Origin: an uncultured Victivallales bacterium
GTDB lineage: Bacteria; Verrucomicrobiota; Kiritimatiellia; UBA8416
Length of the DNA stretch: 52,755 bases
Direction of reading: 5' to 3'
Assembly: GCA_964652765.1 (NCBI GenBank)
Contig: CAZZBA010000001.1
Location: forward strand, 1 to 52,755
Shown: positions 32,895 through 44,938 of the stretch, in pieces
How positions within the stretch are numbered: position 1 is the stretch's first letter
How the letters are laid out: every line of letters starts with the position of its first letter
Position numbers and translations under genes: made by a program
The notes under the pieces: generated by a model
Seen by the model: the letters and a program-made list of their open reading frames with translations, nothing else
Told to the model about the DNA's origin: nothing
The model's database searches: none

Positions 32895-34034
32895 ATGCAG
32901 ATACAATTAGACGAGCGTCAGGAACGCATCGTAGCCGCCGCGCGCGCGTTTGCGAAAGATGAGCTCGCGCCGAACGCGGCGAAGCATGACGCGACGGGGA
33001 TTTTCCCGCGCGAGCTGATCGACCGCATGGCGCAACAGGGGTTTCTGGCTGCCACGCTGCCCGAGGCATACGGGGGGCTGGAACTCGATCCGCTTGCATA
33101 CGGCTTGCTTCTCGAGGCCATTGAACAGGGCGATTGCGCGGCCAGCCGGCTGGTGACCGTGCATCTGGCTCTGGCGGCACAGTCGATTCTGACGTATGGC
33201 AGCGCAGCGCAGCAGGCGCGCTGGCTCCCCGATATCGCCTCCGGCAAGACGATTTGCGCCTTTGCATTGACAGAGCCGGATCACGGTTCCGACGCCGCAG
33301 GCATCGAGTGCTCCTACGGTAGGGACGGTGACGGCTACGTCCTGCGAGGGCGAAAGCGTTGGATTTCCTTCTCCGGGGTGGCCGATCTGCTTGTGGTAAT
33401 CGCGCGCCAGGGGCCGACGGTTTCCGCATTCCTGGTGGAGACTGCCGCTGCGGGCGTGGCGCGGATTCCGCTGACGGGCCTGATGGCAGGGCGGGCCTGC
33501 CACATCTGTGAGATCGTATTGGATGGCGTGCGCGTGCCTCAGGACCAGATGCTGGGCGGCGAAGGCCAAGGTTTCACCTACATTGTTAACTCAGCGATGG
33601 ACCAAGGGCGTTATTCGATTGCCTGGAGCGGCGTGGGGCTGGCCGGTGCGGCACTGAATGCAATGGTGCGCTACGCCAAGAAACGGGAGCAGTTCGGCGT
33701 TAAACTGGCCCGTCACCAACTGATCCGCGGTATGATCGCCGATGGGGTGACGAACCTTTATGCCGCGCGCAGTCTTTGCCTGCGGGCGGCCCAATCCCGC
33801 AAGGAGGGCTCACAGGATGCGATCATCGAGTCCACGATTGCCAAGCAGTTTGCCGCCGGAACGGCCTTCCGCATCGCTGTCGATGCGGTGCAGGTGCATG
33901 GCGGCAACGGTTGCTGTGCTGACTATCCGGCCGAGCGCCTGATGCGCGAAGCCAAGGCGCTTGAGATTATCGAAGGTACCACGCAGATCCAGCAAATGAT
34001 GATTTCCTTGCACGGCCTGCGCCAGTTTGGTTAA
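32895..34034 (+). CDS. Acyl-CoA (or acyl-carrier-protein) dehydrogenase family flavoprotein
   Basis: ATG 32895 follows GGGGGAGGG. Motifs: 'CAFALTEPDHGSDAAG', 'KRWISFSG', 'QFGVKLARHQLI', and 'VHGGNGCCADYPAERLMREAKALEIIEGTTQIQ', which carries the C-terminal catalytic Glu context. Confidence 0.9.
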   Translation: MQIQLDERQERIVAAARAFAKDELAPNAAKHDATGIFPRELIDRMAQQGFLAATLPEAYGGLELDPLAYGLLLEAIEQGDCAASRLVTVHLALAAQSILTYGSAAQQARWLPDIASGKTICAFALTEPDHGSDAAGIECSYGRDGDGYVLRGRKRWISFSGVADLLVVIARQGPTVSAFLVETAAAGVARIPLTGLMAGRACHICEIVLDGVRVPQDQMLGGEGQGFTYIVNSAMDQGRYSIAWSGVGLAGAALNAMVRYAKKREQFGVKLARHQLIRGMIADGVTNLYAARSLCLRAAQSRKEGSQDAIIESTIAKQFAAGTAFRIAVDAVQVHGGNGCCADYPAERLMREAKALEIIEGTTQIQQMMISLHGLRQFG

Positions 34035-34098
34035 ATTCCCATCCGCATTGGTGCCGCTGTGGCGCGGGCGGGGCCGCCGGTGGAGTATTTTTTGGTTT

Positions 34099-34920
34099 AT
34101 GAAGAATTATAAAGGAACACCCGATGAACTGGTCGCCAGCTTGTGGTGCCACCGGAATTTGATTCTTGCGTTGACGCGCCGGGACATTGCCGGGCGCTAC
34201 CGCGGGTCCTTGCTGGGCATCCTATGGTCATTTGTGAACCCGCTCCTGATGCTCGGTGTATACACGTTCGCCTTCGGTGTGATTTTCGGGGCGCGCTGGA
34301 CCGCAGGTTCGGATTCGAAGATGGAGTTCGCCATTATCCTCTTTGCCGGTATGCTTGTTTTTCAACTGTTTTCCGAGTGCGTGAATCGTGCGCCATCGCT
34401 GGTCCTCTCCAATCCGAGCTATGTCAAGAAAGTGGTTTTCCCCCTTGAAGTCCTGCCGATCGTGTCGCTGGGCTCGAGCCTGTTCCACATGCTGGTGAGT
34501 CTCTCGGTCTGGCTGCTGTTCTACTTCGTCGGATTTGGATTGCCCTCCCCGGCAATCCTGTTGCTGCCCGTTATGCTGCTGCCCCTGGTACTGTTTACAA
34601 TAGGCTTATCCTGGATGCTGGCCTCTTTCGGGGTTTACTTACGCGATGTGGGGCATATGGTTTCTTCGTTGACGCTGATGTTGTTGTTCCTTTCGGCCGT
34701 ATTCTATCCGATAGAATCCGTACCGGAAGCCCTGCGTACGCCTTTGACGGTGGCTAATCCACTGGTGTTCCATGTCGAAATATGCCGGCAAGTGATGGTT
34801 TGGGGTAAACTCCCGGCATGGGACTCATGGACGATCTACTTCGTTTTGAGTTTGGTGGTCGCTTGTCTGGGATTTGCCTGGTTCCAGAAGACGCGGAGGG
34901 GGTTCGCCGATGTCCTCTGA
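34099..34920 (+). CDS. wzm: ABC-2 type polysaccharide/O-antigen export permease
   Basis: ATG 34099 (MKNYKG...). 'RRDIAGRYRGSLLGILWSFVNPLLML' is the ABC-2 signature N-terminus, and there are 6 TM helices. Confidence 0.85.
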   Translation: MKNYKGTPDELVASLWCHRNLILALTRRDIAGRYRGSLLGILWSFVNPLLMLGVYTFAFGVIFGARWTAGSDSKMEFAIILFAGMLVFQLFSECVNRAPSLVLSNPSYVKKVVFPLEVLPIVSLGSSLFHMLVSLSVWLLFYFVGFGLPSPAILLLPVMLLPLVLFTIGLSWMLASFGVYLRDVGHMVSSLTLMLLFLSAVFYPIESVPEALRTPLTVANPLVFHVEICRQVMVWGKLPAWDSWTIYFVLSLVVACLGFAWFQKTRRGFADVL

Positions 34921-36265
34921 TATAGCCATCCAGGTCGAGAATCTTTCGAAGAGCTACCACATCTACGATCAGCCCCGCGACCGGTTGAAGCAGATGTTCT
35001 TCTGGGGGCGGCGGCAGTATTACCGTGAATTCTGGGCATTGAAAGATGTGTCTTTCGACGTGCGGCGCGGTGAGACGGTCGGGATTGTCGGGCGTAACGG
35101 CAGTGGAAAATCGACATTGCTACAGTTGATTTGCGGTACGCTAAACCCGACTGGCGGCCAGATAATGACCAACGGTCGCATTGCGGCGCTTCTGGAACTG
35201 GGAACCGGTTTCAATCCTGATTTCACGGGGCGTGAAAATGTCTACATGAACGCCGCTGTTTTAGGACTTTCCAAGGAAGAAATCGATGATCGGTTTGATG
35301 ACATTGCATCCTTTGCCGATATTGGTGACTTTATCGAGCAGCCGGTTAAGACTTACTCTAGCGGCATGGCGGTGCGCCTGGCTTTCGCCGTTCAAGCTGT
35401 GATTGATCCAGATATTTTCGTCGTCGATGAAGCCCTCGCTGTGGGTGATGAAAAATTCCAGCGGAAATGCTTCGCCCGTTTGGAGGACTTGAAGCGTAGA
35501 GGTTCATCAATTCTTTTTGTGTCGCATTCTCCGGCAAGTATCATTGAATTATGCGATAGGACCCTGCTTCTTGATCATGGTGAGCGACTCATGTACAGCT
35601 CAGCTCCACATGCCATACGTGCCTACCAAAAGCTGATTTACGCCCCCGATGAGGATGTGAAAAGATTAGTGCAGGAATACCGTGCCGCCGATCAGTTTGG
35701 GGGAAGTATAGCATCCGAATGGGGTGATAACACAGCAAGCTTAAGTCAAGGCGAATCAACGATTGTTTCCAATGACCCCGCTGTACCTACTTTTGACCCG
35801 GGCCTTTTGCCTGAGACCACCACGGTTTATCCAGCGCAGGGCGCTGAAATTGATTCGATACAGATACTCGACGCCAAGGGGCATGTTGTCAACGTATTGC
35901 AACCTGGGGGAAACTACCAGTTTGTAGTGTCAGGTCGCTTTTTGAACAGCTTTGCCGGGATCTTTTTTGGTATCCATATAAAATCCATTTCCGGTCTGGT
36001 AATTACCGGGCAGCGTTATCCGGAAGAGGGAAAATTCATTGAACTGGATAGTGCCGGGAAATCCTTCAAGATCAGCTTCGGTTTCAGGATGGATGTTCTG
36101 CCGGGTGTCTATTTCGTTGGCGGTGGCATCTGGTCGTCTCAGGAACCAAACTGCGTCCACCGTATTTTGGATGCGATCATGTTTCGCGTTGTTCCGATAA
36201 GTCGTCCTATTTCCTTTGGATATGCGGATATGTCAACAAGGGCACCAAATGTCGAATTATTCTAA
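34910..36265 (+). CDS. wzt: Polysaccharide/O-antigen ABC exporter ATP-binding protein with a C-terminal carbohydrate-binding-like (Wzt_C-type) domain
   Basis: ATG 34910 overlaps the end of wzm by 11 nt. Walker A 'GIVGRNGSGKST', signature 'YSSGMAVRLAFA', Walker B 'IFVVDEALAVGD'. An extra beta-rich domain of about 190 aa is present ('IQILDAKGHVVNVLQPGGNYQFVVSGRF...FGFRMDVLPGVYFVGGGIW'). Confidence 0.9.
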   Translation: MSSDIAIQVENLSKSYHIYDQPRDRLKQMFFWGRRQYYREFWALKDVSFDVRRGETVGIVGRNGSGKSTLLQLICGTLNPTGGQIMTNGRIAALLELGTGFNPDFTGRENVYMNAAVLGLSKEEIDDRFDDIASFADIGDFIEQPVKTYSSGMAVRLAFAVQAVIDPDIFVVDEALAVGDEKFQRKCFARLEDLKRRGSSILFVSHSPASIIELCDRTLLLDHGERLMYSSAPHAIRAYQKLIYAPDEDVKRLVQEYRAADQFGGSIASEWGDNTASLSQGESTIVSNDPAVPTFDPGLLPETTTVYPAQGAEIDSIQILDAKGHVVNVLQPGGNYQFVVSGRFLNSFAGIFFGIHIKSISGLVITGQRYPEEGKFIELDSAGKSFKISFGFRMDVLPGVYFVGGGIWSSQEPNCVHRILDAIMFRVVPISRPISFGYADMSTRAPNVELF

Positions 36266-38012
36266 ATCTCTTTCTGCCACAAAACTGGGAATTCTCAAGG
36301 CGTGCTTTGATCGCACGGAGGGTATGGTGGGTTTTGACGAGGCTATACTGCTCTACCATCTCGCGAAAGAGGTGGATAGTGGGTGTATCGTAGAAATCGG
36401 TTCCTACCGGGGTAGGTCATCGGTATTCCTGGGCAAGGGTTCACTTGATGGAGTAAATGCACCAGTCTATGCGATAGATCCGCATAGGAGCTTCATCGGT
36501 GTTCTGGGTGGAGAGTTCGGTCCAAAAGATCGTACTGCATTCTATCGAGCCATGCTCGATAACGAATGCAGCGAGATCGTCTCGCTGATTAATTCGAGCA
36601 GCGAGTGCTTATCCCCATTATGGAGCGAGCCGATTTCGCTCTTGTGGATTGACGGAGATCATAGCTACGATGGGGTAAAGAAGGATCTCAACTGTTGGTT
36701 GCCGCATTTATCCCCCAATGCCAAGATTGCGTTTGATGACGCAACTGACCCAGAGCTTGGACCCCGTAAGCTTATTGATGAACTGATTTTGTCGAAGCGA
36801 TTTGAGATCGTCATGAACGTTGGTAAAGTCGTTGTCTTGCGGGGCAATGTCAAAGGTGAATTTGATAAGATACCTGTGGCAGATGTTCATGATAGGCCAT
36901 TGTTGGATAAAGAAAAATCATTTGAATACGTCCGCTACAACAGCTACCGTTCGGAGCGATACAAACTCTTTTATGTTGCTACGCCGAAAGTTGCCTGCAC
37001 TTCCTTGAAATGGTGGTTTGCAGACTTGGAAGGGTGCTCGCAGGTTTTGCGCGGTCTTGTTGACAGCATTGAGACTGACCCGGAGCTGGTTATCCACGAC
37101 ACCTTCCACAGGGTGGCGCCAAATGTGACCCACTTGACGCCGGAAACGATCGCAGAGGTACTCGCTTCGGATTCATATTTTCGTTTCGCAGTAGTCCGCA
37201 ATCCGTACAAGCGGATATTCTCAGCGTGGCAATCGAAGTTACTCTTAAGAGAGCCCTACCAGATAAGGCCTTATCTCCACTACGATTTCTTCAATCACCC
37301 GATTATATGTGCGGATGATATCGCGTCGGCATTTGAAGGGTTTCTTGAGCATCTCGCAACCAATGAGGCACCCTCTTATTGGGATGTACACTGGACCCCG
37401 CAAGTAGACCTGCTTCGCCCCGATCTGATCAACTATTCAAAGCTGGTCAAAATCGAGAATGCGAATGAGCTTAGCCAGGCACTAGCGGTTCGGCTCGGTG
37501 GTCATATTCCGGATCCTTTTGCAGACCGACGCATAAATGAAAGTCTGATTCCGTATCTGCCCGAGTTCGTTTCGCAACGAAGTGCGGAGTTGATTCGTTT
37601 GCTGTATGCCAAGGATTTTGTGACTTTCGGATATGACGAACAACCGCCAGCGACAAAGGAAACGTACTCTACTGATCAGCTCAATCTCGCAATCAAGGCC
37701 ATTCCGCTCATTCGTGGGCGAAACCAGCGGCTGGGTGATCTTAATAAGCGCATAGTCAGCCTCAATGAAGCCATGGCTGCGCAGGCCGGCGAGATTGATC
37801 GGCAGGTCAGCGAGATTGATCGGCAGGCTGGCGAGATTGATCGGCAGGCCGGCGAGATTGCGCGGCTTGAGTTAACAATCCTTGAAAGGGATAATGAGCT
37901 TGTTTCCATTCACTTGAGCGGTTCCTGGAAAATAACCAGACCGCTAAGGCAGTTATATCGTATTCTGCAAAGAATGAAGGGTGCCCCAGATGCTGATATT
38001 GAGACTATCTAG
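36249..38012 (+). CDS. Tri-partite SAM-methyltransferase / sulfotransferase / coiled-coil protein (WbdD-like chain terminator or ruler candidate)
   Basis: ATG 36249 overlaps the end of wzt by 17 nt. Methyltransf_24-like 'GCIVEIGSYRGRSSVFL...LLWIDGDHSYDGVKKD...IAFDD'. Sulfotransfer_2-like 'FYVATPKVACTSLKWWF' (5'-PSB) and 'FAVVRNPYKRIFSAWQSK' (3'-PB). A heptad-repeat coiled coil is followed by 'SGSWKITRPLRQLYRIL'. Confidence 0.75.
   Translation: MSNYSKSLSATKLGILKACFDRTEGMVGFDEAILLYHLAKEVDSGCIVEIGSYRGRSSVFLGKGSLDGVNAPVYAIDPHRSFIGVLGGEFGPKDRTAFYRAMLDNECSEIVSLINSSSECLSPLWSEPISLLWIDGDHSYDGVKKDLNCWLPHLSPNAKIAFDDATDPELGPRKLIDELILSKRFEIVMNVGKVVVLRGNVKGEFDKIPVADVHDRPLLDKEKSFEYVRYNSYRSERYKLFYVATPKVACTSLKWWFADLEGCSQVLRGLVDSIETDPELVIHDTFHRVAPNVTHLTPETIAEVLASDSYFRFAVVRNPYKRIFSAWQSKLLLREPYQIRPYLHYDFFNHPIICADDIASAFEGFLEHLATNEAPSYWDVHWTPQVDLLRPDLINYSKLVKIENANELSQALAVRLGGHIPDPFADRRINESLIPYLPEFVSQRSAELIRLLYAKDFVTFGYDEQPPATKETYSTDQLNLAIKAIPLIRGRNQRLGDLNKRIVSLNEAMAAQAGEIDRQVSEIDRQAGEIDRQAGEIARLELTILERDNELVSIHLSGSWKITRPLRQLYRILQRMKGAPDADIETI
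37782..37865 (+). repeat. Four tandem copies of a 21-bp unit (CAGGCCGGCGAGATTGATCGG and variants) encoding the heptads QAGEIDR/QVSEIDR/QAGEIDR/QAGEIAR
   Basis: Read directly from the sequence. Units occupy 37782-37802, 37803-37823, 37824-37844 and 37845-37865, in frame within the coiled-coil segment of the 36249-38012 CDS. Confidence 0.95.
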
Positions 38013-41000
38013 GTTATATCGTTTACTCCGAAAAAGTGGGTATTTTGATGATCGGTATTACCTGTTGAGTAATCCAGAAGTTCGCAAGGCCGATATTGAT
38101 GCATTGTCGCATTATATATCCCATGGTTGGCGCGAAGGTCGCAATCCTAGTGCATTTTTTGATGTAAGCGGTTATTTGGAAAAATATCCTGATGTAAGGG
38201 ATGCAGGCATTGAACCATTGTTCCATTACCTTTGTTTCGGCATGGAAGAGGGCCGCAATTCATGCAAGGATCAAAATGAAATAGTACATGGCAAGAAGCA
38301 TTTCAAAGACGATGTACACGTTAGTGAGAAAAGAATGATTAGTGGTCGCCTATCCGGAGCAACACGAGGAACCGTTGCATATTCGCGGAAAATGCTCCAA
38401 CTGTTTTATATGGCGATCAAGAATCCCTCATTGTTGGTTTACGTATGCGAGAAGCTTAAAGCCAATGGATATAAGTCGACTATAAATGAAATTTTAGGAA
38501 TCTTGAACAAAAGTACACCTTGTCCGCGGCAAGAATATGAAAATGCCGCGAAATATTGCCTTATCGTTCAGACGATTGATGGTTATTTCAAGAAGCACAC
38601 GCGTGGTCATCCTCAAGAGCAAAACAACATTTTATTAATATCGCATGACCTCATACGCGCTGGGGCTCCTTTGCTGCTCCTCAATATTGCAAAACACCTG
38701 AGAGAAGTAGGGGAAAAGAATATTTTGATAATTAGCCTTGTTGATGGAGAGCTCCGAGGTGAATTTGAAAAATACTGCACAGTTTTGTGCCTGAATCAAA
38801 GTAACCGATGGACAATTGAGAATGCTTCACTCGTTGATTGCATATTCAGGAAGCTTTCAGATAATGGTGTCAACAAGGCAATCGGCAACACTACCGGTAG
38901 CGCATTGTTTGTCCCATATCTAGAAAAATGTGGTTTTGTCTATCAAATACTGATACATGAAATGCCGGAGACAGTTGAGTTCATGGGCTGGGACAAGACA
39001 GCAGCACTGCGCTTATCTGAGATAGCAAGCGGAAGGGCGGTCTACTCATCAGAATATGTCTTAGGAAAGCACAGGCAATTGTATGCTTTGCCGTATAATG
39101 TTGAAGTAATACCGCAGGGCATGTTCCAAGTACAGCGTAAGCAAAGAAACGCGGAATCGAGAGCCGATCTTCTGTCAAGGTACAAGCTTCCAAAAAACGC
39201 AAGACTCATATTGCATGGTGGTAAAGACCTTGTGAGAAAGGGCTTGGATCTCTTTGTCGATATTGCGTTTCATGTGTCCTCGCTCCAGAAGAACATCTAC
39301 TTTGTTTATTTGTGTGACAAATATGAGCTGACTACGCACAAAGAATTGGTAAAGAAAATCGCTGACAGTGCCAACATCATTATAGACAATTTCACGAGTG
39401 ATTATGGGTTATATCTTGAAGGCTCGGATCTTTATGCTTTAACAAGCCGCGCGGATCCATTCCCGAACACTGTGCTCGATGCTTTATCGCATGGATTGCC
39501 GGTTATTGCATTTGATGAATGTGGCGGTGCACCTGAGCTGCTTAGGCAAATAGATGATTGCCTCGTTGCAAAGAGACAGGACGTACAGGATTTTGCCCGG
39601 AAAGTATCTTTCCTTCTGGATAATCCAAGTAAATACAAGGAGATATCGGGAAAATCAATTGACATAATTCGGCGAGATTACCGCTTTGAAAAATATGTGG
39701 ACAGGTTACAGTCGTTTTTTGATGCCCACTCTTTGCATAAAGTGTCAGTAATTGTTCCTAACTATGATTTCAGCGAATTCCTGCCCGAAAGACTTCATTC
39801 CATTATCAATCAGACATTGATGCCATATGAGATAATTTTCCTTGATGATAAATCCTCTGATGACAGTTGCCTGATTGCTGAAGGCATTCTCGCTGACTCG
39901 CGCATAAAGTATAAGATCGTGAAAAACGATTCGAATCAAGGTGTCCTCAAGCAGTGGCAGAAGGGCATCGAAATGGCTGAAGGTGAGCTAGTATGGATTG
40001 CTGATGCAGCCGATTATTGCGATCGCAATCTGTTGATGACGCTGGTCCCTCGTTTTGGTGATCCCGATATTTCGCTTGCCTATTGTCACGCGCGCCTGGT
40101 CGATGCCGATGGGGTTTCGATTAATGATGATGGCGTACTCCTTCATGCTAATGATATTGATGATTTACGGTGGCGGCATTCTTTTGTCTGCAAAGGAACT
40201 CACGAGATTTATCGTGGATTCTTGTATAGAAATTTAATAAGCAACTCCGGAGTCTGTGTATTCAGAAGAAACTCATGTGCCGGAGATATGCTAGAACAGT
40301 TGAAAAATTATAAATACGTCGGAGATTGGTTTCTTTATGCAAGCTTGATGTCCTCTGGTAAAATATTCCACTCGCACAAAGTTCTCGCCAGCTTTCGCCG
40401 TCACCAAAAGGCGATTACAACCAAAAGCATGAATTCGAATGAATATGTTCGTGAAGTCATGGCGGTTATTGAAATGATGATGAAAACGCATAAGGTGTCG
40501 GAAAGGAGCTTTGAAAAAATACGGTTTCATCTAAAAAAAGATCATAATATCGAGCTAGAACAATATGGTGAAGATTTAGCCAGGCTTTTGGCGAATATGC
40601 AAGAAGTGGCAACAATTCTGTTTGTATCGACAAATCCATGTGCTCAGGAGGGCGGAGGCTCTGACGTTCTTTGGTATGAAGCAGCAAAAACATTATCGAT
40701 CCAAAACTATCCCCTGTTTTTAAATGTTTATAAGCGTTCAAACATGCCGCATAGGGTTGGTGTATTGCGAAATATCGGAGTGACTATTTCTTATTACGAG
40801 GAAACAGGGCTTAGTATATTAGACGAGATCGGTGTAGATTTAGTTATCATTATACAGGGGGATGAGAGGGAAGGCTCTGATTGGTGTGAAACATGCAAAA
40901 ACAAAAAGATTCCTTATGTTATCGTAAATCAATTAACGAGACCCGATGTTGAGATCAATTCAAATGTCAAAGAGGGTTATCTTAATGCTAGCAAGGTTTT

Positions 41001-41667
41001 TTTCACCTGCGAGAATAACCGTTTATTAATGCAGGAAAAGATCGGACGTGAGCTCGGAAATGCTGAGCGCCACTATAATCCAGTCGCCGGCATCGAGCGC
41101 GGAGCCATCATGCCATTTCCTGAAGTAATCGGCAATCGATACTATTTGGCATGTCCTGCTAGGTTAATGGTGATTCACAAAGGGCAAGATTTGCTGTTTG
41201 AGGTCCTCAAGCAAGACAAATGGAAAGATCGCCAATTGCATATTAATCTTTACGGCGACGGTCCGGATAAAGAAATGTTACAGGAAATGAAAAAGACTCG
41301 CGCTGTGGATAATGTCGTGTTTTGCGGTTACGAGCGTGATGTGTGTGAAATTTGGAAGAGGAATCATGGTATCATTATGCCCAGCCGTATGGAGGGTGTG
41401 CCGATTGTATTGCTGGGCGCTATGTTTTGTGGACGCGTCCCCATCTTGACCGATGTTGGAGGGCACCGTGAACTGGTTCAGGATGGTGTGGCGGGTTTTA
41501 TTGCAAATGCACCAACTGTGGAGGATGTCGATGCTGCCCTGGAACGTGCATGGCGGCAGAGGGCAAATTGGTCGGAGATCGGCAGGAAAGCTCGCGAGGC
41601 GGTTTTGGCTTTCCAGTCCGAGGATCCTGTGAAGGATTTTGTCGACAAGATTTTGGGACAAGTATGA
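37990..41667 (+). CDS. Multidomain glycosyltransferase (GT4-like, GT2, GT4), polymerase-like
   Basis: ATG 37990 (track start GTG 37981) overlaps the preceding stop.
- The N-terminus has two copies of an 'NPxV...HY..xGxxEGRNP'-type motif.
- GT4-like region at ~38620-39720 ('TSRADPFPNTVLDALSHGLPVIAFDECGGAPELL').
- GT2 at ~39742-40440 ('VSVIVPNYDFSEFLPERLHSIINQTLMPYEIIFLDDKSSDDS').
- C-terminal GT4 at ~41160-41660 ('MPSRMEGVPIVLLGAMFCGRVPILTDVGGHRELVQDGVAGF'). Confidence 0.8.
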   Translation: MLILRLSRLYRLLRKSGYFDDRYYLLSNPEVRKADIDALSHYISHGWREGRNPSAFFDVSGYLEKYPDVRDAGIEPLFHYLCFGMEEGRNSCKDQNEIVHGKKHFKDDVHVSEKRMISGRLSGATRGTVAYSRKMLQLFYMAIKNPSLLVYVCEKLKANGYKSTINEILGILNKSTPCPRQEYENAAKYCLIVQTIDGYFKKHTRGHPQEQNNILLISHDLIRAGAPLLLLNIAKHLREVGEKNILIISLVDGELRGEFEKYCTVLCLNQSNRWTIENASLVDCIFRKLSDNGVNKAIGNTTGSALFVPYLEKCGFVYQILIHEMPETVEFMGWDKTAALRLSEIASGRAVYSSEYVLGKHRQLYALPYNVEVIPQGMFQVQRKQRNAESRADLLSRYKLPKNARLILHGGKDLVRKGLDLFVDIAFHVSSLQKNIYFVYLCDKYELTTHKELVKKIADSANIIIDNFTSDYGLYLEGSDLYALTSRADPFPNTVLDALSHGLPVIAFDECGGAPELLRQIDDCLVAKRQDVQDFARKVSFLLDNPSKYKEISGKSIDIIRRDYRFEKYVDRLQSFFDAHSLHKVSVIVPNYDFSEFLPERLHSIINQTLMPYEIIFLDDKSSDDSCLIAEGILADSRIKYKIVKNDSNQGVLKQWQKGIEMAEGELVWIADAADYCDRNLLMTLVPRFGDPDISLAYCHARLVDADGVSINDDGVLLHANDIDDLRWRHSFVCKGTHEIYRGFLYRNLISNSGVCVFRRNSCAGDMLEQLKNYKYVGDWFLYASLMSSGKIFHSHKVLASFRRHQKAITTKSMNSNEYVREVMAVIEMMMKTHKVSERSFEKIRFHLKKDHNIELEQYGEDLARLLANMQEVATILFVSTNPCAQEGGGSDVLWYEAAKTLSIQNYPLFLNVYKRSNMPHRVGVLRNIGVTISYYEETGLSILDEIGVDLVIIIQGDEREGSDWCETCKNKKIPYVIVNQLTRPDVEINSNVKEGYLNASKVFFTCENNRLLMQEKIGRELGNAERHYNPVAGIERGAIMPFPEVIGNRYYLACPARLMVIHKGQDLLFEVLKQDKWKDRQLHINLYGDGPDKEMLQEMKKTRAVDNVVFCGYERDVCEIWKRNHGIIMPSRMEGVPIVLLGAMFCGRVPILTDVGGHRELVQDGVAGFIANAPTVEDVDAALERAWRQRANWSEIGRKAREAVLAFQSEDPVKDFVDKILGQV

Positions 41668-41790: not shown

Positions 41791-42711
41791 ATGAAAATAG
41801 CAGTTTTTGGTGGTGGAGGATTTATTGGGTCAGCGGTGGTTGACCGTCTATTGAAAGATGGTCATACAATTCGGATATTTGAGCGTCCCAGGGTAGTCCC
41901 GTACCGGCGTTTCTCTGCGACCGAAGGCGTGGAATGGGTTACCGGTGATTTGATGAGCAATCATGACGTGGCTCATGTTCTTGATGGCATCGACATTGTC
42001 GTTCACCTTGTGTCAACAACGTTGCCGGGAAGCTCTAATGATGACCCCGTATATGATGTTCAGACTAATGTTGTGTCAACGATTCAAATGCTACAGGCAA
42101 TGGTGGCAAGGAAAGTGGGGAAAATCGTTTTCATATCTTCCGGCGGCACCATATATGGGAAGCCGGTTGCATTGCCTATCAACGAGGATCATCCCACAAA
42201 TCCACTCGTTTCCTATGGCATAACCAAGCTTGCGGTTGAGAAATACATTTTGATGTTTCAGCACCTTTATGGGATCAAGGCTCGCATATTGAGAGTGGCC
42301 AATCCGTATGGTGTGCGGCAGCGAGTGGATACAGGGCAGGGCGTGGTCACGGCTTTTGTCAGCAAGGCGTTGAGGGACGAGTCGATTGAAGTGTGGGGTG
42401 ATGGGCGTGTTGTCAGGGATTACCTTTACATTGACGACCTTGCCGAGGCTTTTGCTCGTGCAGTATATTACGATGGTTCACATTCCGTCTTTAATATCGG
42501 TTCAGGAGTGGGGACGGACATCAATTCCCTGCTGGACGCGATTGAAAGCGTTCTTGAGCGGCCCGTTTCGCGACATTACAAGCCCGGCCGGGCCTTTGAT
42601 GTGCCTTCCAATGTACTTGATATAACACGTGCTGGCAAAGAGCTTGACTGGCAACCGGGAGTGCCGCTCCTGCAAGGTATGGAAATCATGCTTAAAAGGC
42701 GAACGTCGTGA
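41791..42711 (+). CDS. NAD-dependent sugar-nucleotide epimerase/dehydratase (extended SDR, GalE-like)
   Basis: 'MKIAVFGGGGFIGSAVV' (GxxGxxG) and catalytic 'YGITKLAVE' (YxxxK). AGGAG lies 9 nt upstream. Confidence 0.9.
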   Translation: MKIAVFGGGGFIGSAVVDRLLKDGHTIRIFERPRVVPYRRFSATEGVEWVTGDLMSNHDVAHVLDGIDIVVHLVSTTLPGSSNDDPVYDVQTNVVSTIQMLQAMVARKVGKIVFISSGGTIYGKPVALPINEDHPTNPLVSYGITKLAVEKYILMFQHLYGIKARILRVANPYGVRQRVDTGQGVVTAFVSKALRDESIEVWGDGRVVRDYLYIDDLAEAFARAVYYDGSHSVFNIGSGVGTDINSLLDAIESVLERPVSRHYKPGRAFDVPSNVLDITRAGKELDWQPGVPLLQGMEIMLKRRTS

Positions 42712-42724
42712 CGGTGGGAGTTGT

Positions 42725-44938
42725 GTGAAAAAACACAAACTTATAACAATTATCCCCCCCCTTCTGATCCTTTGCTGGCTTCTGTATTTGGGAGTCATGA
42801 TTTGGTGGCGCGCCCATATTAGTGTACAGCCACCGATTTATGATCCTCTCTCTTATATGCAAAAAGCTATTAATTTCTGGGATGCATTGTCGAATGGGCA
42901 GTTATTTAATCCCTTCAATCTTCAACCTACCGTGCGGCCTCCCGGTACTATTTTGATGTCATACCCTTTCGGATTCACCCATGATTTCAGAGGGTACCAT
43001 TTTCGCTCGGTGTTTCTACCAATACTTTGTATTGTGGGGGCTGTTTACATTGTTGCCGGCGCTCATGCTTGCTGTAAAAAGGGCAACGAATGGTGGACGG
43101 CTGCCATCGCTCTATTATTCTCATCACTCCCCATGTATTATCATTTTGATTGGTTTCAGGATCCGGTAAGCCCGACTCGCTGGGGCCTTGTAGATAATTT
43201 TCATGCCGGTGTCGCCGCATTGGCTATGGCGGCATTTCTTCGAAGCGTCTTCGCAAAATCATTGAAGTGGTTGTTTTTGGCGGTTTTGCTTTCTTCCTTT
43301 ACTCTTATAATCAAGCCCTCCGGTATCGCGGTTATGGGGCTGGCATCAATGGCATGGGTAATTGTTATTATGTTTGAATGGATTCACCTTTTTAAGAGCA
43401 AATCCCCCAAGCGAGATGTGCAAAAATATTTTATATTTGGTAGCATCATTACAGGTATAACATATTGTATAACTATAACTATTTGCGTTCTATCTCAATA
43501 TTTATCTAAGCATAATATTTCTTATGCACATGAAGCTTTGGCGGTAATGCGAAAAGTACTACTCTTTAGCTGCTATGAGCTGTTCCAGATGTTTTACAAG
43601 AGTGCAGGGCCCGCTTTGCTGTTATGGATTACCTTGGTGTTCATTCTGCTATATCGCCGCCTTCCAAGTGGCGAACCACAGGCTTGTAGGCATAGGGCTC
43701 AGGCCTCGGGTTTGCTGATCGGTAGCGCGGTTATTTGGACCGCAGGTTTATGGTACATGATCGTTGTACAAGCCGGTGGCAGTAGTCAGATAAGATATTT
43801 TTATCCTTTTATGCTCATGGGGGCGATTTGCGTTACCCCTGTCGCTTTTATGGCATGGGATCAAACAAGTCGTTTGTTGCGTTTGTGGTTGGTGGTCTTG
43901 TGCGGACTGCCAGCTTTAAATATAAGTGCTCTTCTGGCAACTGGAAATACGCCACCAATGTCCTGGCAGAGAATGTCCGGTGTTAATGTAAGCGTCGGGC
44001 AGGATCGCAAGATTGTTGAACAAGCGCAGGCGTTCCTCCAGAATGTCCAGAGCAATGGAGAGAACGTTCAGGTTTATTCATTTAACAGCAGGTTGCCGTC
44101 GCAAATATTTGAAAGCGTCGGTATGTATGAGGAATATGCTCGCACTGGTCTGCCAACTTTTACAACTAAAATACCGACTGATTGGGTCAACGGGTTCGTG
44201 GTGCGCACGGGGGAAATATTAGAAAGCGATTATATTCTGATTAATAGATATCCCGACTATAGTTATGATCCGCAACATATGTTAGGCCAGCATTATGATG
44301 CATATGAATCTGAAGTTAGGGCTTTTGAAATTTGGGCCTCACACTTGGAACGAGACGCGGGTGTCGAAACCGTTTCTGACAGCAATGATTTGCGGCTATT
44401 GAAGATTGCCGACCGAAAGGCATTTAACCAAGCTATTGAGAAGTTTGTCGCGGCCAACACTTGGCGTCCGGAATTCTCGGCAGCCAACCCACCCACCTGG
44501 TGGAGCCCGGATGCTGTTTTAGCTTATGCAAAGATGCCAGCTTTGACTGAAATTAACTTTGATGACATCTTCAAGATTCATGCGCTTTCAATCAGCCGCG
44601 TTCCCTCCGGATTAAAGGTTGAAGTCTGGTGGCAGGAACTGCGTCAGAATGCAGTAAAGAATAAATCGCTGATTTTCCTTCATATGCTTGATGTGGATGG
44701 CAATTGCATTGTTTTGTCGCAAATATTGCTATGCTCGTCTCAGCCTTTGTGCGATGAACGTCCACTCCGCTATGGTCAGGCTATGCTTCCTCTTTCCCCA
44801 CTGGCGCATGCGCTGGCGTTTGGTGTTTGTGAACCGGGAGGTGCGTTTCTTCTTCCGGACAAAGGCATGACGGACTGGGGTGGGCGGCGTGTGGTGATTC
44901 CTCTTGCAGGTCCTGCAACAGGTACTAAACATGATTAG
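42725..44938 (+). CDS. Polytopic membrane protein, GT-C-like (ArnT/PMT-type) glycosyltransferase candidate with a C-terminal beta-rich soluble domain
   Basis: GTG 42725 follows GGTGGGAG. There are about 11-13 TM helices in the first ~430 aa. The first extracytoplasmic loop contains 'PPIYDPLSYMQKA', an acidic-residue loop as in GT-C enzymes. The C-terminal ~330 aa are soluble. The fold assignment is tentative. Confidence 0.45.
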   Translation: MKKHKLITIIPPLLILCWLLYLGVMIWWRAHISVQPPIYDPLSYMQKAINFWDALSNGQLFNPFNLQPTVRPPGTILMSYPFGFTHDFRGYHFRSVFLPILCIVGAVYIVAGAHACCKKGNEWWTAAIALLFSSLPMYYHFDWFQDPVSPTRWGLVDNFHAGVAALAMAAFLRSVFAKSLKWLFLAVLLSSFTLIIKPSGIAVMGLASMAWVIVIMFEWIHLFKSKSPKRDVQKYFIFGSIITGITYCITITICVLSQYLSKHNISYAHEALAVMRKVLLFSCYELFQMFYKSAGPALLLWITLVFILLYRRLPSGEPQACRHRAQASGLLIGSAVIWTAGLWYMIVVQAGGSSQIRYFYPFMLMGAICVTPVAFMAWDQTSRLLRLWLVVLCGLPALNISALLATGNTPPMSWQRMSGVNVSVGQDRKIVEQAQAFLQNVQSNGENVQVYSFNSRLPSQIFESVGMYEEYARTGLPTFTTKIPTDWVNGFVVRTGEILESDYILINRYPDYSYDPQHMLGQHYDAYESEVRAFEIWASHLERDAGVETVSDSNDLRLLKIADRKAFNQAIEKFVAANTWRPEFSAANPPTWWSPDAVLAYAKMPALTEINFDDIFKIHALSISRVPSGLKVEVWWQELRQNAVKNKSLIFLHMLDVDGNCIVLSQILLCSSQPLCDERPLRYGQAMLPLSPLAHALAFGVCEPGGAFLLPDKGMTDWGGRRVVIPLAGPATGTKHD

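What the first reader, a model, noticed from the sequence alone, without database searches (positions are those of the whole stretch)
37782..37865. 4 x 21-bp perfect-phase heptad repeat inside the terminator's coiled coil: a potential chain-length 'ruler' that can expand or contract
**What the sequence shows.**
- Four head-to-tail 21-bp units differ by only 1-3 nt and encode QAGEIDR-QVSEIDR-QAGEIDR-QAGEIAR.
- Each unit is exactly one coiled-coil heptad.
- They are embedded in a longer heptad-like segment (~37690-37910) just before the conserved 'SGSWKITRPLR' tail.

**Established background.**
- Near-identical tandem DNA repeats are prone to slipped-strand or recombinational copy-number change.
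- In WbdD, coiled-coil length sets O-polysaccharide chain length.

**Inference.** In-frame gain or loss of 21-bp units would lengthen or shorten the ruler by one heptad per event. That would give heritable, reversible variation in glycan modal length.
Basis: partly seen in the sequence, partly recalled or inferred. Interest (0 to 1): 0.6.

Follow-up and report, generated by a model that had tools for sequence, protein, structure and literature searches.

The report
Heptad minisatellite in glycan-terminator coiled coil
A real 4 x 21-bp in-frame repeat encodes four turns-of-seven in the long helical stalk of a sugar-chain capping enzyme, and relatives show that such stalks gain and lose whole seven-residue units between near-identical strains, so stalk length, and probably surface-sugar chain length, is naturally adjustable.

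Summary
Window 37782-37865 holds four head-to-tail 21-bp units, the only strong tandem repeat in the window. They encode residues 512-539 of a 587-aa protein (36249-38012).

**The protein.** It has a sugar-O-methyltransferase-like domain, a Sulfotransfer_2 domain, one continuous 82-residue helix and a basic amphipathic tail. It lies between wzm/wzt (with a Wzt_C module) and a GT4-GT2-GT4 polymerase. It resembles WbdD in architecture but is not a WbdD homologue.

**Expand or contract: supported on evolutionary timescales.**
- The closest relative (91% identical) is one heptad shorter.
- The three lineages show unit homogenisation (codon 6 is GAT, GCG or GAG by genome).
- Of 121 sulfotransferase homologues, 45 carry tandem repeats, all with periods that are multiples of 7 aa.
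- The spacer from domain to tail is heptad-quantised, 63-264 aa.
- At least 8 of 15 multi-member 90%-identity clusters contain variants differing by 7-70 aa inside the coil.
- Two allelic series were checked at DNA level.

**Not shown.** Oligomeric coiled coil, any effect on glycan length, and rapid reversible switching. The window's array is the most degenerate of the three (longest exact repeat 19 bp).

**Precedent.** H. pylori FutA/FutB heptad ruler. I rate this a new variant of a known kind.

The parts
37782..37865 (+). Four tandem 21-bp units encoding heptads QAGEIDR, QVSEIDR, QAGEIDR, QAGEIAR (aa 512-539 of the 587-aa protein)
   Evidence: TRF score 139. Unit sequences and mismatch matrix.
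37866..37886 (+). Non-repeat flanking heptad LELTILE. In relative L011 this position holds QESEILR, and the region is one heptad shorter overall.
37671..37916 (+). Continuous alpha-helix, aa 475-556 (82 residues, about 12 nm): the putative coiled-coil spacer. The repeat makes up 28 of its 82 residues.
   Evidence: AlphaFold2, block pLDDT 93-98. I/L/M at heptad position 'a' in 9 consecutive heptads, aa 495-551.
37920..37976 (+). Tail helix aa 558-576 carrying the conserved SWKITRPLR motif. It is basic and amphipathic, and is a candidate membrane or polymerase docking end.
   Evidence: helix; hydrophobic moment peak, 6 basic residues; motif in about 50 homologues
36249..38012 (+). Terminator-like gene, 587 aa from ATG 36249. 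The longer TTG 36216 ORF is probably not the real start.
   Evidence: homologues start at MSNYSK, and the 587-aa form is the called protein.
36390..36740 (+). Methyltransf_24 domain with a fold like sugar O-methyltransferases
   Evidence: Pfam 3.7e-19. Foldseek hits MeT1 6g80, SpnH, MycF. PDB profile hit 6g7d.
36948..37637 (+). Sulfotransfer_2 domain
   Evidence: Pfam 6e-24. 312 homologues found.
34027..34920 (+). wzm (ABC-2 permease)
   Evidence: Pfam ABC2_membrane 2.6e-24
34910..36265 (+). wzt (ABC ATPase with a Wzt_C carbohydrate-binding module). It overlaps the terminator start by 17 nt.
   Evidence: Pfam ABC_tran and Wzt_C 3e-21
37990..41667 (+). Multi-module glycosyltransferase (GT4-GT2-GT4), the presumed polymerase. 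It overlaps the terminator stop.
   Evidence: Pfam. Homologous GT modules are fused behind the coil in P0080, P0084, P0052, P0035 and P0042.

Best explanation
**What it is.** The array is an in-frame heptad minisatellite inside the helical spacer of the chain-terminating enzyme of an ABC-transporter-dependent glycan pathway.

**How the protein is laid out.** The capping domains (a sugar O-methyltransferase-like domain and a PAPS-type sulfotransferase) sit at the far end of an 82-residue helix. The basic amphipathic SWxxTxPLR tail sits at the membrane or polymerase end.

**How the repeat acts.** Each DNA unit is exactly one heptad. Replication slippage or unequal recombination therefore adds or removes 7 residues (about 1 nm) without breaking the a/d register, so length variants stay functional.

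**Timescale.** In this lineage and across the family, this happens on the timescale of strain divergence. It produces alleles with different spacer lengths and, by analogy with WbdD and WbbB, different glycan modal lengths.

**Shown.**
- The repeat and its phase
- The predicted helix
- The pathway context
- Natural heptad-quantised copy-number change

**Inferred.**
- Oligomeric coiled coil
- Terminator activity and cap chemistry
- Ruler effect on chain length
For: **Repeat and helix.**
- The repeat is real.
- Domains and wzm-wzt(Wzt_C)-terminator-polymerase order. The order is conserved in L011, L012, L018, L019-L023 and L033-L035.
- Helix aa 475-556 at pLDDT 93-98.
- Unbroken heptad register.

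**This lineage.**
- L011 (gene 92.7% nt identical) has 4 rather than 5 heptads between SLNxxxAA and RDNELVS.
- Codon 6 of the units is GAT in the window, GCG in L011 and GAG in L012, which indicates homogenisation.
- L012 has three identical units.

**Family.**
- The FGY-to-SW spacer is 63-264 aa. In 27 of 51 proteins it is 0 mod 7 and in 13 of 51 it is 4 mod 7. Twelve of 27 distinct lengths are 0 mod 7, p=1.5e-4.
- 45 of 121 homologues have tandem repeats, with periods only 7, 14, 21, 28, 35 or 42 and none at any other period from 3 to 41.
- All 11 internal indels between members of the same 90% cluster are multiples of 7 aa: 7, 7, 14, 14, 14, 21, 21, 28, 49, 70, 70.

**Alleles checked at DNA level.**
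- 6 versus 7 copies of a 21-bp unit, each form in at least 2 independent assemblies, with the longest exact repeat 27 bp.
- 2, 4 and 5 copies of a 42-bp unit in loci 99.4-99.95% identical.

**Ruler precedents.**
- WbdD and WbbB (PMC5082667, PMC11231755).
- H. pylori FutA/FutB heptad-number ruler (PMC2583950).
Against: - There is no functional data for this protein or any family member. A sulfotransferase-domain ORF next to wzt in Aeromonas salmonicida had no matching sulfate in the known O-antigen structure (PMC4483657).
- Three of the four units carry a glycine, and Gln occupies position 'd' in four successive heptads. Both are unusual for a stable canonical coiled coil.
- AlphaFold was run on a monomer, so no oligomer is shown.
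- One heptad (about 1 nm) may shift modal length by less than one repeat unit.
- Only four sequences of the narrow lineage exist, with one length difference. That difference may lie in the flanking heptad rather than in a repeat unit.
- Chain length in WbdD systems also depends on stoichiometry (PMC11231755).
Confidence: 0.6

Rival explanations
1. **Neutral by-product.** Coiled-coil spacers grow by tandem duplication because heptad-phase duplications are tolerated. Under this reading the length variation is drift, with no consequence for glycan length, and the helix serves only as an oligomerisation or tethering element.
For: - Spacer lengths range four-fold (63-264 aa) across homologues with conserved catalytic domains, which suggests wide tolerance.
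- The window's units have begun to diverge, including a synonymous GCC/GCT difference. That is consistent with an old, unselected duplication.
Against: - Engineered length changes in WbdD alter modal length (PMC5082667).
- The strict 0 or 4 mod 7 quantisation shows that both ends are phase-constrained.
- Repeated homogenisation in three lineages indicates ongoing turnover.
Confidence: 0.22
2. **High-frequency contingency locus.** This is the first reader's stronger claim. Copy number would switch reversibly within a clonal population, giving phase-like variation of chain length.
For: - H. pylori futB arrays of 5-8 heptads lost 1-2 units within 50 in vitro passages (PMC2583950).
- Alleles differing only in copy number occur in loci 99.4-99.95% identical.
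Against: - The window has only 4 imperfect units with a 19-bp maximum exact match.
- P0002 and P0122, from two contigs, have the same copy number.
- No read-level data could be obtained.
- Known contingency loci usually have many perfect short units (own knowledge).
Confidence: 0.08
3. **Sequence-specific function.** The repeated heptads would matter for their sequence rather than their length. For example, the stacked Gln 'd' layers and Glu/Arg pairs could set oligomer state or bind a partner such as Wzt or the polymerase.
For: - Q at 'd' in all four units, and a conserved E-I-x-R core across the three lineages despite turnover.
- Other family members repeat a different conserved motif, ERDGQIxxLNQxV.
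Against: - Repeat sequences differ completely between sub-lineages: QAGEIDR, QAKIIDE, ERDGQIASLNQAVT.
- Only the period is conserved.
Confidence: 0.08
4. **Assembly artefact.** The tandem array or its copy number would have been created by the assembler.
For: The window is a MAG contig, and tandem repeats can be mis-assembled.
Against: - The array is 84 bp with a 19-bp longest exact repeat, which any usual k-mer and a single read resolve.
- Homologous arrays occur in independent JGI contigs.
Confidence: 0.02

Closest known systems
WbdD (E. coli O9a / K. pneumoniae O3) chain terminator with coiled-coil molecular ruler
   Same: - N-terminal capping enzymes, then an extended helix, then a C-terminal membrane-proximal region.
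- Encoded beside wzm, wzt (with CBM) and the polymerase.
- In WbdD, insertions or deletions in the coil change modal length (PMC5082667, PMC11231755).
   Different: - A Sulfotransfer_2 domain replaces the kinase.
- The methyltransferase is Methyltransf_24, like sugar O-methyltransferases.
- The helix is shorter: about 12 nm against about 20 nm.
- The spacer contains a DNA-level tandem repeat and varies naturally in heptad steps. I found no description of that for WbdD.
H. pylori FutA/FutB alpha1,3/4-fucosyltransferase C-terminal heptad repeats ('enzymatic ruler')
   Same: - Tandem repeats encode one heptad each.
- The number varies within and between strains by slippage or recombination.
[quoted passage not shown]
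   Different: - The catalytic family is unrelated: a decorating GT, not a terminator.
- The pathway is different.
- The repeat sequence is different (DD/NLRV/INY).
- Those arrays reach 17 units.
WbbB (K. pneumoniae O12) and ORF6 (O7): terminator-coil-polymerase fusions
   Same: - Terminator at the distal end of a coil, with polymerase GT modules at the proximal end.
- Family members P0015, P0021, P0035 and P0042 have exactly this fused layout with the sulfotransferase as the distal domain.
   Different: - In the window, terminator and polymerase are separate overlapping genes.
- The cap chemistry is different: Kdo or methyl-phosphate there.
NeuO polysialic-acid O-acetyltransferase poly-psi heptads
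   Same: A variable number of tandem heptads, generated by DNA repeat slippage, tunes an enzyme that modifies a surface polysaccharide (PMC3046976).
   Different: - The DNA unit is 7 nt, so it also gives on/off frameshifts.
- The heptads are N-terminal and disordered, and were shown not to form a coiled coil.
- They tune catalytic efficiency, not distance.

Membership tests
WbdD-type terminator (kinase-methyltransferase) | Kinase domain that phosphorylates the terminal sugar | tested here: not met
   Pfam finds Sulfotransfer_2 in that position and no kinase. Foldseek gives no WbdD hit among the top matches.
WbdD-type terminator (kinase-methyltransferase) | N-terminal SAM methyltransferase domain | tested here: inconclusive
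   A methyltransferase is present. It is Methyltransf_24, with a fold like MeT1, SpnH and MycF. Homology to the WbdD methyltransferase was not shown.
WbdD-type terminator (kinase-methyltransferase) | Extended C-terminal coiled coil followed by a membrane-associating amphipathic helix | tested here: inconclusive
   A continuous helix at aa 475-556 and a basic amphipathic helix at aa 558-576 are predicted. Oligomer formation and membrane binding are not testable here.
ABC-transporter-dependent glycan pathway with terminal-cap recognition | wzm plus wzt carrying a C-terminal carbohydrate-binding module, adjacent to terminator and polymerase | tested here: met
   ABC2_membrane, ABC_tran with Wzt_C, and GT4-GT2-GT4. 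The same order occurs in 10 related loci.
Coiled coil | Heptad a/d hydrophobic pattern in an uninterrupted helix without proline | tested here: met
   Position 'a' is L, I, M, I, I, I, I, I, L over 9 heptads. Position 'd' is L, L, Q, Q, Q, Q, L, R, I. There is no Pro in 490-556 and a helix is predicted. Caveat: Gly in 3 of the 4 units and polar 'd' residues.
Coiled coil | Parallel oligomer (dimer or trimer) | not testable with these tools
   Only monomer prediction was available.
Variable-number tandem repeat / contingency locus | Head-to-tail DNA repeats in frame | tested here: met
Variable-number tandem repeat / contingency locus | Copy number differs among closely related strains | tested here: met
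   Own lineage: one 21-bp difference among 4 sequences. Sister lineages: 6/7 and 2/4/5 copy alleles in 98-99.95% identical loci. All 11 within-cluster indels are multiples of 7 aa.
Variable-number tandem repeat / contingency locus | High-frequency reversible change within a clonal population | not testable with these tools
H. pylori Fut heptad ruler | GT10 fucosyltransferase catalytic domain | tested here: not met
   The domains are Methyltransf_24 and Sulfotransfer_2.

The most novel reading that the evidence does not exclude
Heptad-unit minisatellites in terminator spacers would be a general, selectable 'adjustable ruler'. Bacteria with ABC-transporter-dependent glycans would tune surface-polysaccharide chain length between strains by slipping whole heptads in and out. 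Here this occurs in a previously uncharacterised class of terminators that cap chains with sulfate and/or O-methyl groups. The family's natural allelic series (2/4/5, 6/7 and +/-10 heptads) would then be ready-made tests of the ruler model.
Probability: 0.3. Interest if true: 0.75.

Novelty: new variant of a known kind. Interest (0 to 1): 0.6.

Why it matters
**The gap it addresses.** The molecular-ruler model for O-antigen length rests on engineered insertions and deletions in two model proteins. This family offers natural allelic series in which near-identical strains differ only by whole heptads in the spacer.

**What becomes testable.**
- How much does modal length change per heptad?
- Is spacer length under selection, for example by phage, grazers or complement?
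- Is it a source of surface variation invisible to gene-content typing?

**Other consequences.**
- It points to sulfotransferase-type terminators as an uncharacterised cap chemistry.
- These repeats may break or mis-size genes in short-read assemblies.

Tried and rejected
- **More close relatives.**
  - The 61 related genomes held no orthologue.
  - The metagenome scan returned only the known JFJP01 contig and relatives at 41-47% identity.
  - The genome-contig scan returned only sulfotransferase-domain relatives at 67% identity or less.
  - A search with the C-terminal 148 aa for fragmentary genes found nothing.
- **Family naming.** NCBIfam gave no family for the protein. The PDB sequence profile hit only the methyltransferase domain.
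- **Papers not held.** Hagelueken 2015 and Nilsson 2006. I cite their content through PMC5082667, PMC11231755, PMC4205683 and PMC2583950.
- **Literature on the idea itself.** Searches found no description of natural tandem-repeat variation in terminator coils, or of sulfotransferase terminators. This does not prove there is none.
- **Assembly artefact.** Rejected on the exact-repeat lengths.
- **L011 breakpoint.** Its fourth heptad (QESEILR) is 9 mismatches from the flank heptad and 10-13 from the repeat units, so the exact breakpoint of the 21-bp difference is unresolved.
- **DNA check of alleles.** Only the P0011 and P0015 allelic series were checked at DNA level. The Logan-only pair P0024/P0130 and the others rest on protein sequences.
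Full report
**1. Observation**

Tandem Repeats Finder finds one strong tandem repeat in the window: 37781-37860, period 21, 3.8 copies, 89% matches, no indels, score 139. All eight other rows score 31 or less.

Read in the gene frame, the four units are 37782-37802, 37803-37823, 37824-37844 and 37845-37865. They encode QAGEIDR, QVSEIDR, QAGEIDR and QAGEIAR. They differ pairwise by 1-4 nt.

The longest exact direct repeat in the array is 19 bp. The 84-bp array therefore cannot be an assembly artefact.

**2. The gene and its setting**

The ORF is 36216-38012. Homologues and the catalogued protein begin at MSNYSK, which is ATG 36249, giving 587 aa.

Domains:
- Pfam finds Methyltransf_24 (3.7e-19) and Sulfotransfer_2 (6e-24). 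NCBIfam finds nothing.
- AlphaFold2 on a 91-sequence alignment gives mean pLDDT 89.6. It predicts two globular domains, one continuous helix at aa 475-556 (block pLDDT 93-98) and a second helix at aa 558-576.
- The repeat (aa 512-539) is 28 of the 82 helix residues.
- Foldseek matches the N-terminal domain to sugar O-methyltransferases: MeT1 6g80, SpnH and MycF. The PDB profile search also hits MeT1.

Neighbours:
- Upstream are wzm (ABC2_membrane) and wzt (ABC_tran plus Wzt_C).
- Downstream, overlapping the stop codon, is a GT4-GT2-GT4 protein.
- Then come an epimerase/dehydratase, a methyltransferase-GT2, a methyltransferase and an acyltransferase_3.
- The genome has APS kinase genes on other contigs, so PAPS can be made.

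By architecture and context this is the terminator of an ABC-transporter-dependent glycan pathway. [quoted passage not shown] It is not homologous in its catalytic parts.

**3. Is it a coiled coil?**

Taken modulo 7 over aa 490-578, one column reads L, I, M, I, I, I, I, I, L. That is position 'a' in nine consecutive heptads, aa 495-551. The column three residues later reads L, L, Q, Q, Q, Q, L, R, I, which is position 'd'.

The repeat is therefore in unbroken register with both flanks. There is no proline in 490-556.

Caveats:
- Three of the four units carry Gly.
- Position 'd' is Gln throughout the repeat.
- Only a monomer was modelled.

The tail SWKITRPLRQLYRILQRMKG has the highest hydrophobic moment of the region and six basic residues. 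That is consistent with an interfacial helix. This is an inference.

**4. Does the array change?**

Own lineage. Only four sequences exist.
- L011 (JGI 3300002026, identical to JFJP01018622; gene 92.7% nt identical) reads QTGEIAR, QTGEIAR, QAGEIAR, QESEILR and then RDNELVS. That is four heptads where the window and L012 have five, a 21-bp difference.
- L012 (87.3% identical) reads QVGEIER followed by three DNA-identical QAGEIER units, then IKSVTLE.
- P0122 has the same array as P0002.
- Codon 6 of the units is GAT in the window (units 1-3), GCG in L011 and GAG in L012. Units within a genome are closer to each other than to their positional counterparts in the other genomes (matrix).
- This is the signature of repeated homogenisation by duplication, deletion or conversion.
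- The window's array is the most diverged of the three.

**5. The family-wide pattern**

Spacer length:
- Among 51 Sulfotransfer_2 homologues that keep the SWxxTxP[LIV] tail motif, I measured the distance from the Tyr of the FGY motif (end of the domain) to the Trp of the tail. It ranges from 63 to 264 aa.
- It is an exact multiple of 7 in 27 proteins and 4 mod 7 (a stutter) in 13.
- Of 27 distinct lengths, 12 are 0 mod 7 (binomial p=1.5e-4). The sequences are related, so this p-value is indicative only.

Repeat periods:
- 45 of 121 homologues carry tandem peptide repeats at 75% identity or more.
- Their periods are 7 (10 proteins), 14 (30), 21 (2), 28 (13), 35 (4) and 42 (5).
- No other period between 3 and 41 occurs.
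- Examples are 13 copies of NLNQLVAERDGQIG in P0021 and seven QAKIIDE-type heptads in P0011.

Within-cluster variants:
- I looked up the members of 22 clusters at 90% identity, of which 15 have more than one member.
- At least 8 of those 15 contain full-length variants that differ by an internal indel in the coil.
- All 11 indels are multiples of 7 aa: 7, 7, 14, 14, 14, 21, 21, 28, 49, 70, 70.
- The proteins are otherwise 96-100% identical.

Two series checked at DNA level:
- (a) L019 and L020 carry seven 21-bp units. L021, L022 and L023 carry six. Each form appears in at least two independent assemblies from different samples. The loci are 98.2-99.1% identical between the forms (99.8% between the two seven-unit loci) and the longest exact repeat is 27 bp.
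- (b) L035, L033 and L034 carry 2, 4 and 5 copies of a 42-bp unit. The loci are 99.4-99.95% identical over about 8 kb and the longest exact repeats are 13-46 bp.
- These exact-repeat lengths are far below the k=141 named in the contig labels, so I take the alleles as real.

All these loci have the wzm-wzt(Wzt_C) context. Several also have an APS kinase between wzm and wzt.

**6. Mechanism**

Shown:
- An in-frame heptad minisatellite sits in a predicted long helix of a terminator-like protein.
- Natural gain and loss of whole heptad multiples occurs in this lineage and in many sister lineages.

Inferred:
- The helix forms a parallel oligomer.
- It holds the capping domains about 12 nm from the membrane or polymerase end.
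- Each unit changes that distance by about 1 nm.
- The glycan modal length shifts accordingly, as engineered changes do in WbdD (PMC5082667).

Support for a terminator-polymerase link:
- Homologous GT modules are fused directly behind the coil in P0080, P0084, P0052, P0035 and P0042. This is the WbbB or ORF6-O7 layout (PMC11231755).

Rate:
- With four imperfect units and 19-bp maximum identity, I expect variation between strains rather than rapid switching within a culture.

**7. Comparison with known systems**

- The ruler concept is known from WbdD and WbbB.
- A heptad-number ruler generated by DNA repeats is known in H. pylori FutA/FutB. There, arrays of 5-8 heptads lost 1-2 units in 50 passages, and the number correlates with the size of the fucosylated chains (PMC2583950; PMC4205683).
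- NeuO is a further heptad VNTR, but it does not form a coiled coil (PMC3046976).
- What is new here is the combination: a terminator spacer built from heptad minisatellites, with strain-level length alleles, in an uncharacterised sulfotransferase/methyltransferase class of terminators.
- I found no paper describing this.
- A sulfotransferase-domain ORF beside wzt was noted without explanation in Aeromonas salmonicida (PMC4483657).

**8. Verdict**

Expansion and contraction are real on evolutionary timescales. The ruler effect is plausible by analogy. Reversible phase-like behaviour is untested and unlikely for this particular array.
- Interest is 0.6.
- Novelty: a new variant of a known kind.

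Noticed in passing
window 38020-38274 (aa 14-98 of ORF 37981-41667): The polymerase N-terminus carries a duplicated module of about 40 aa (YFDDRYYLLSNPEV...HYISHGWREGRNP). It is 42-46% identical to a module found at the C-terminus, after coil and tail, of terminator homologues P0003, P0106, P0109 and P0111. The terminator/polymerase gene boundary therefore falls on different sides of this module in different lineages. It is a candidate docking module.
   Followed up: partly
L019-L023; L018, L021, L022: In sister loci the Methyltransf_24 part and the Sulfotransfer_2-plus-coil part are separate adjacent genes, whereas they are fused in the window. An APS kinase gene sits between wzm and wzt there. 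The window's cluster lacks one, although the genome has APS kinase on contigs C36 and C183.
   Followed up: partly
L012 7743-10742 versus window 37981-41667: The terminators are 85% identical, but the downstream polymerase differs in module content: GT4+GT4 (999 aa) in L012 against GT4-GT2-GT4 (1228 aa) in the window. This suggests different glycans behind a shared terminator.
   Followed up: no
Cluster members P0047, P0055, P0142, P0143, P0146-P0149: Many isolate-genome members of this sulfotransferase family (Aeromonas, Pseudomonas, E. coli) are annotated 'partial'. They match the N-terminal part of longer cluster members at 97-100% identity. The coil repeats may break short-read assemblies, so copy number in isolates is probably under-recorded.
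   Followed up: no
window 42629-44938: A 769-aa ORF inside the glycan cluster has no Pfam hit at E<=0.001. An earlier first-reader note calls it GT-C-like.
   Followed up: no
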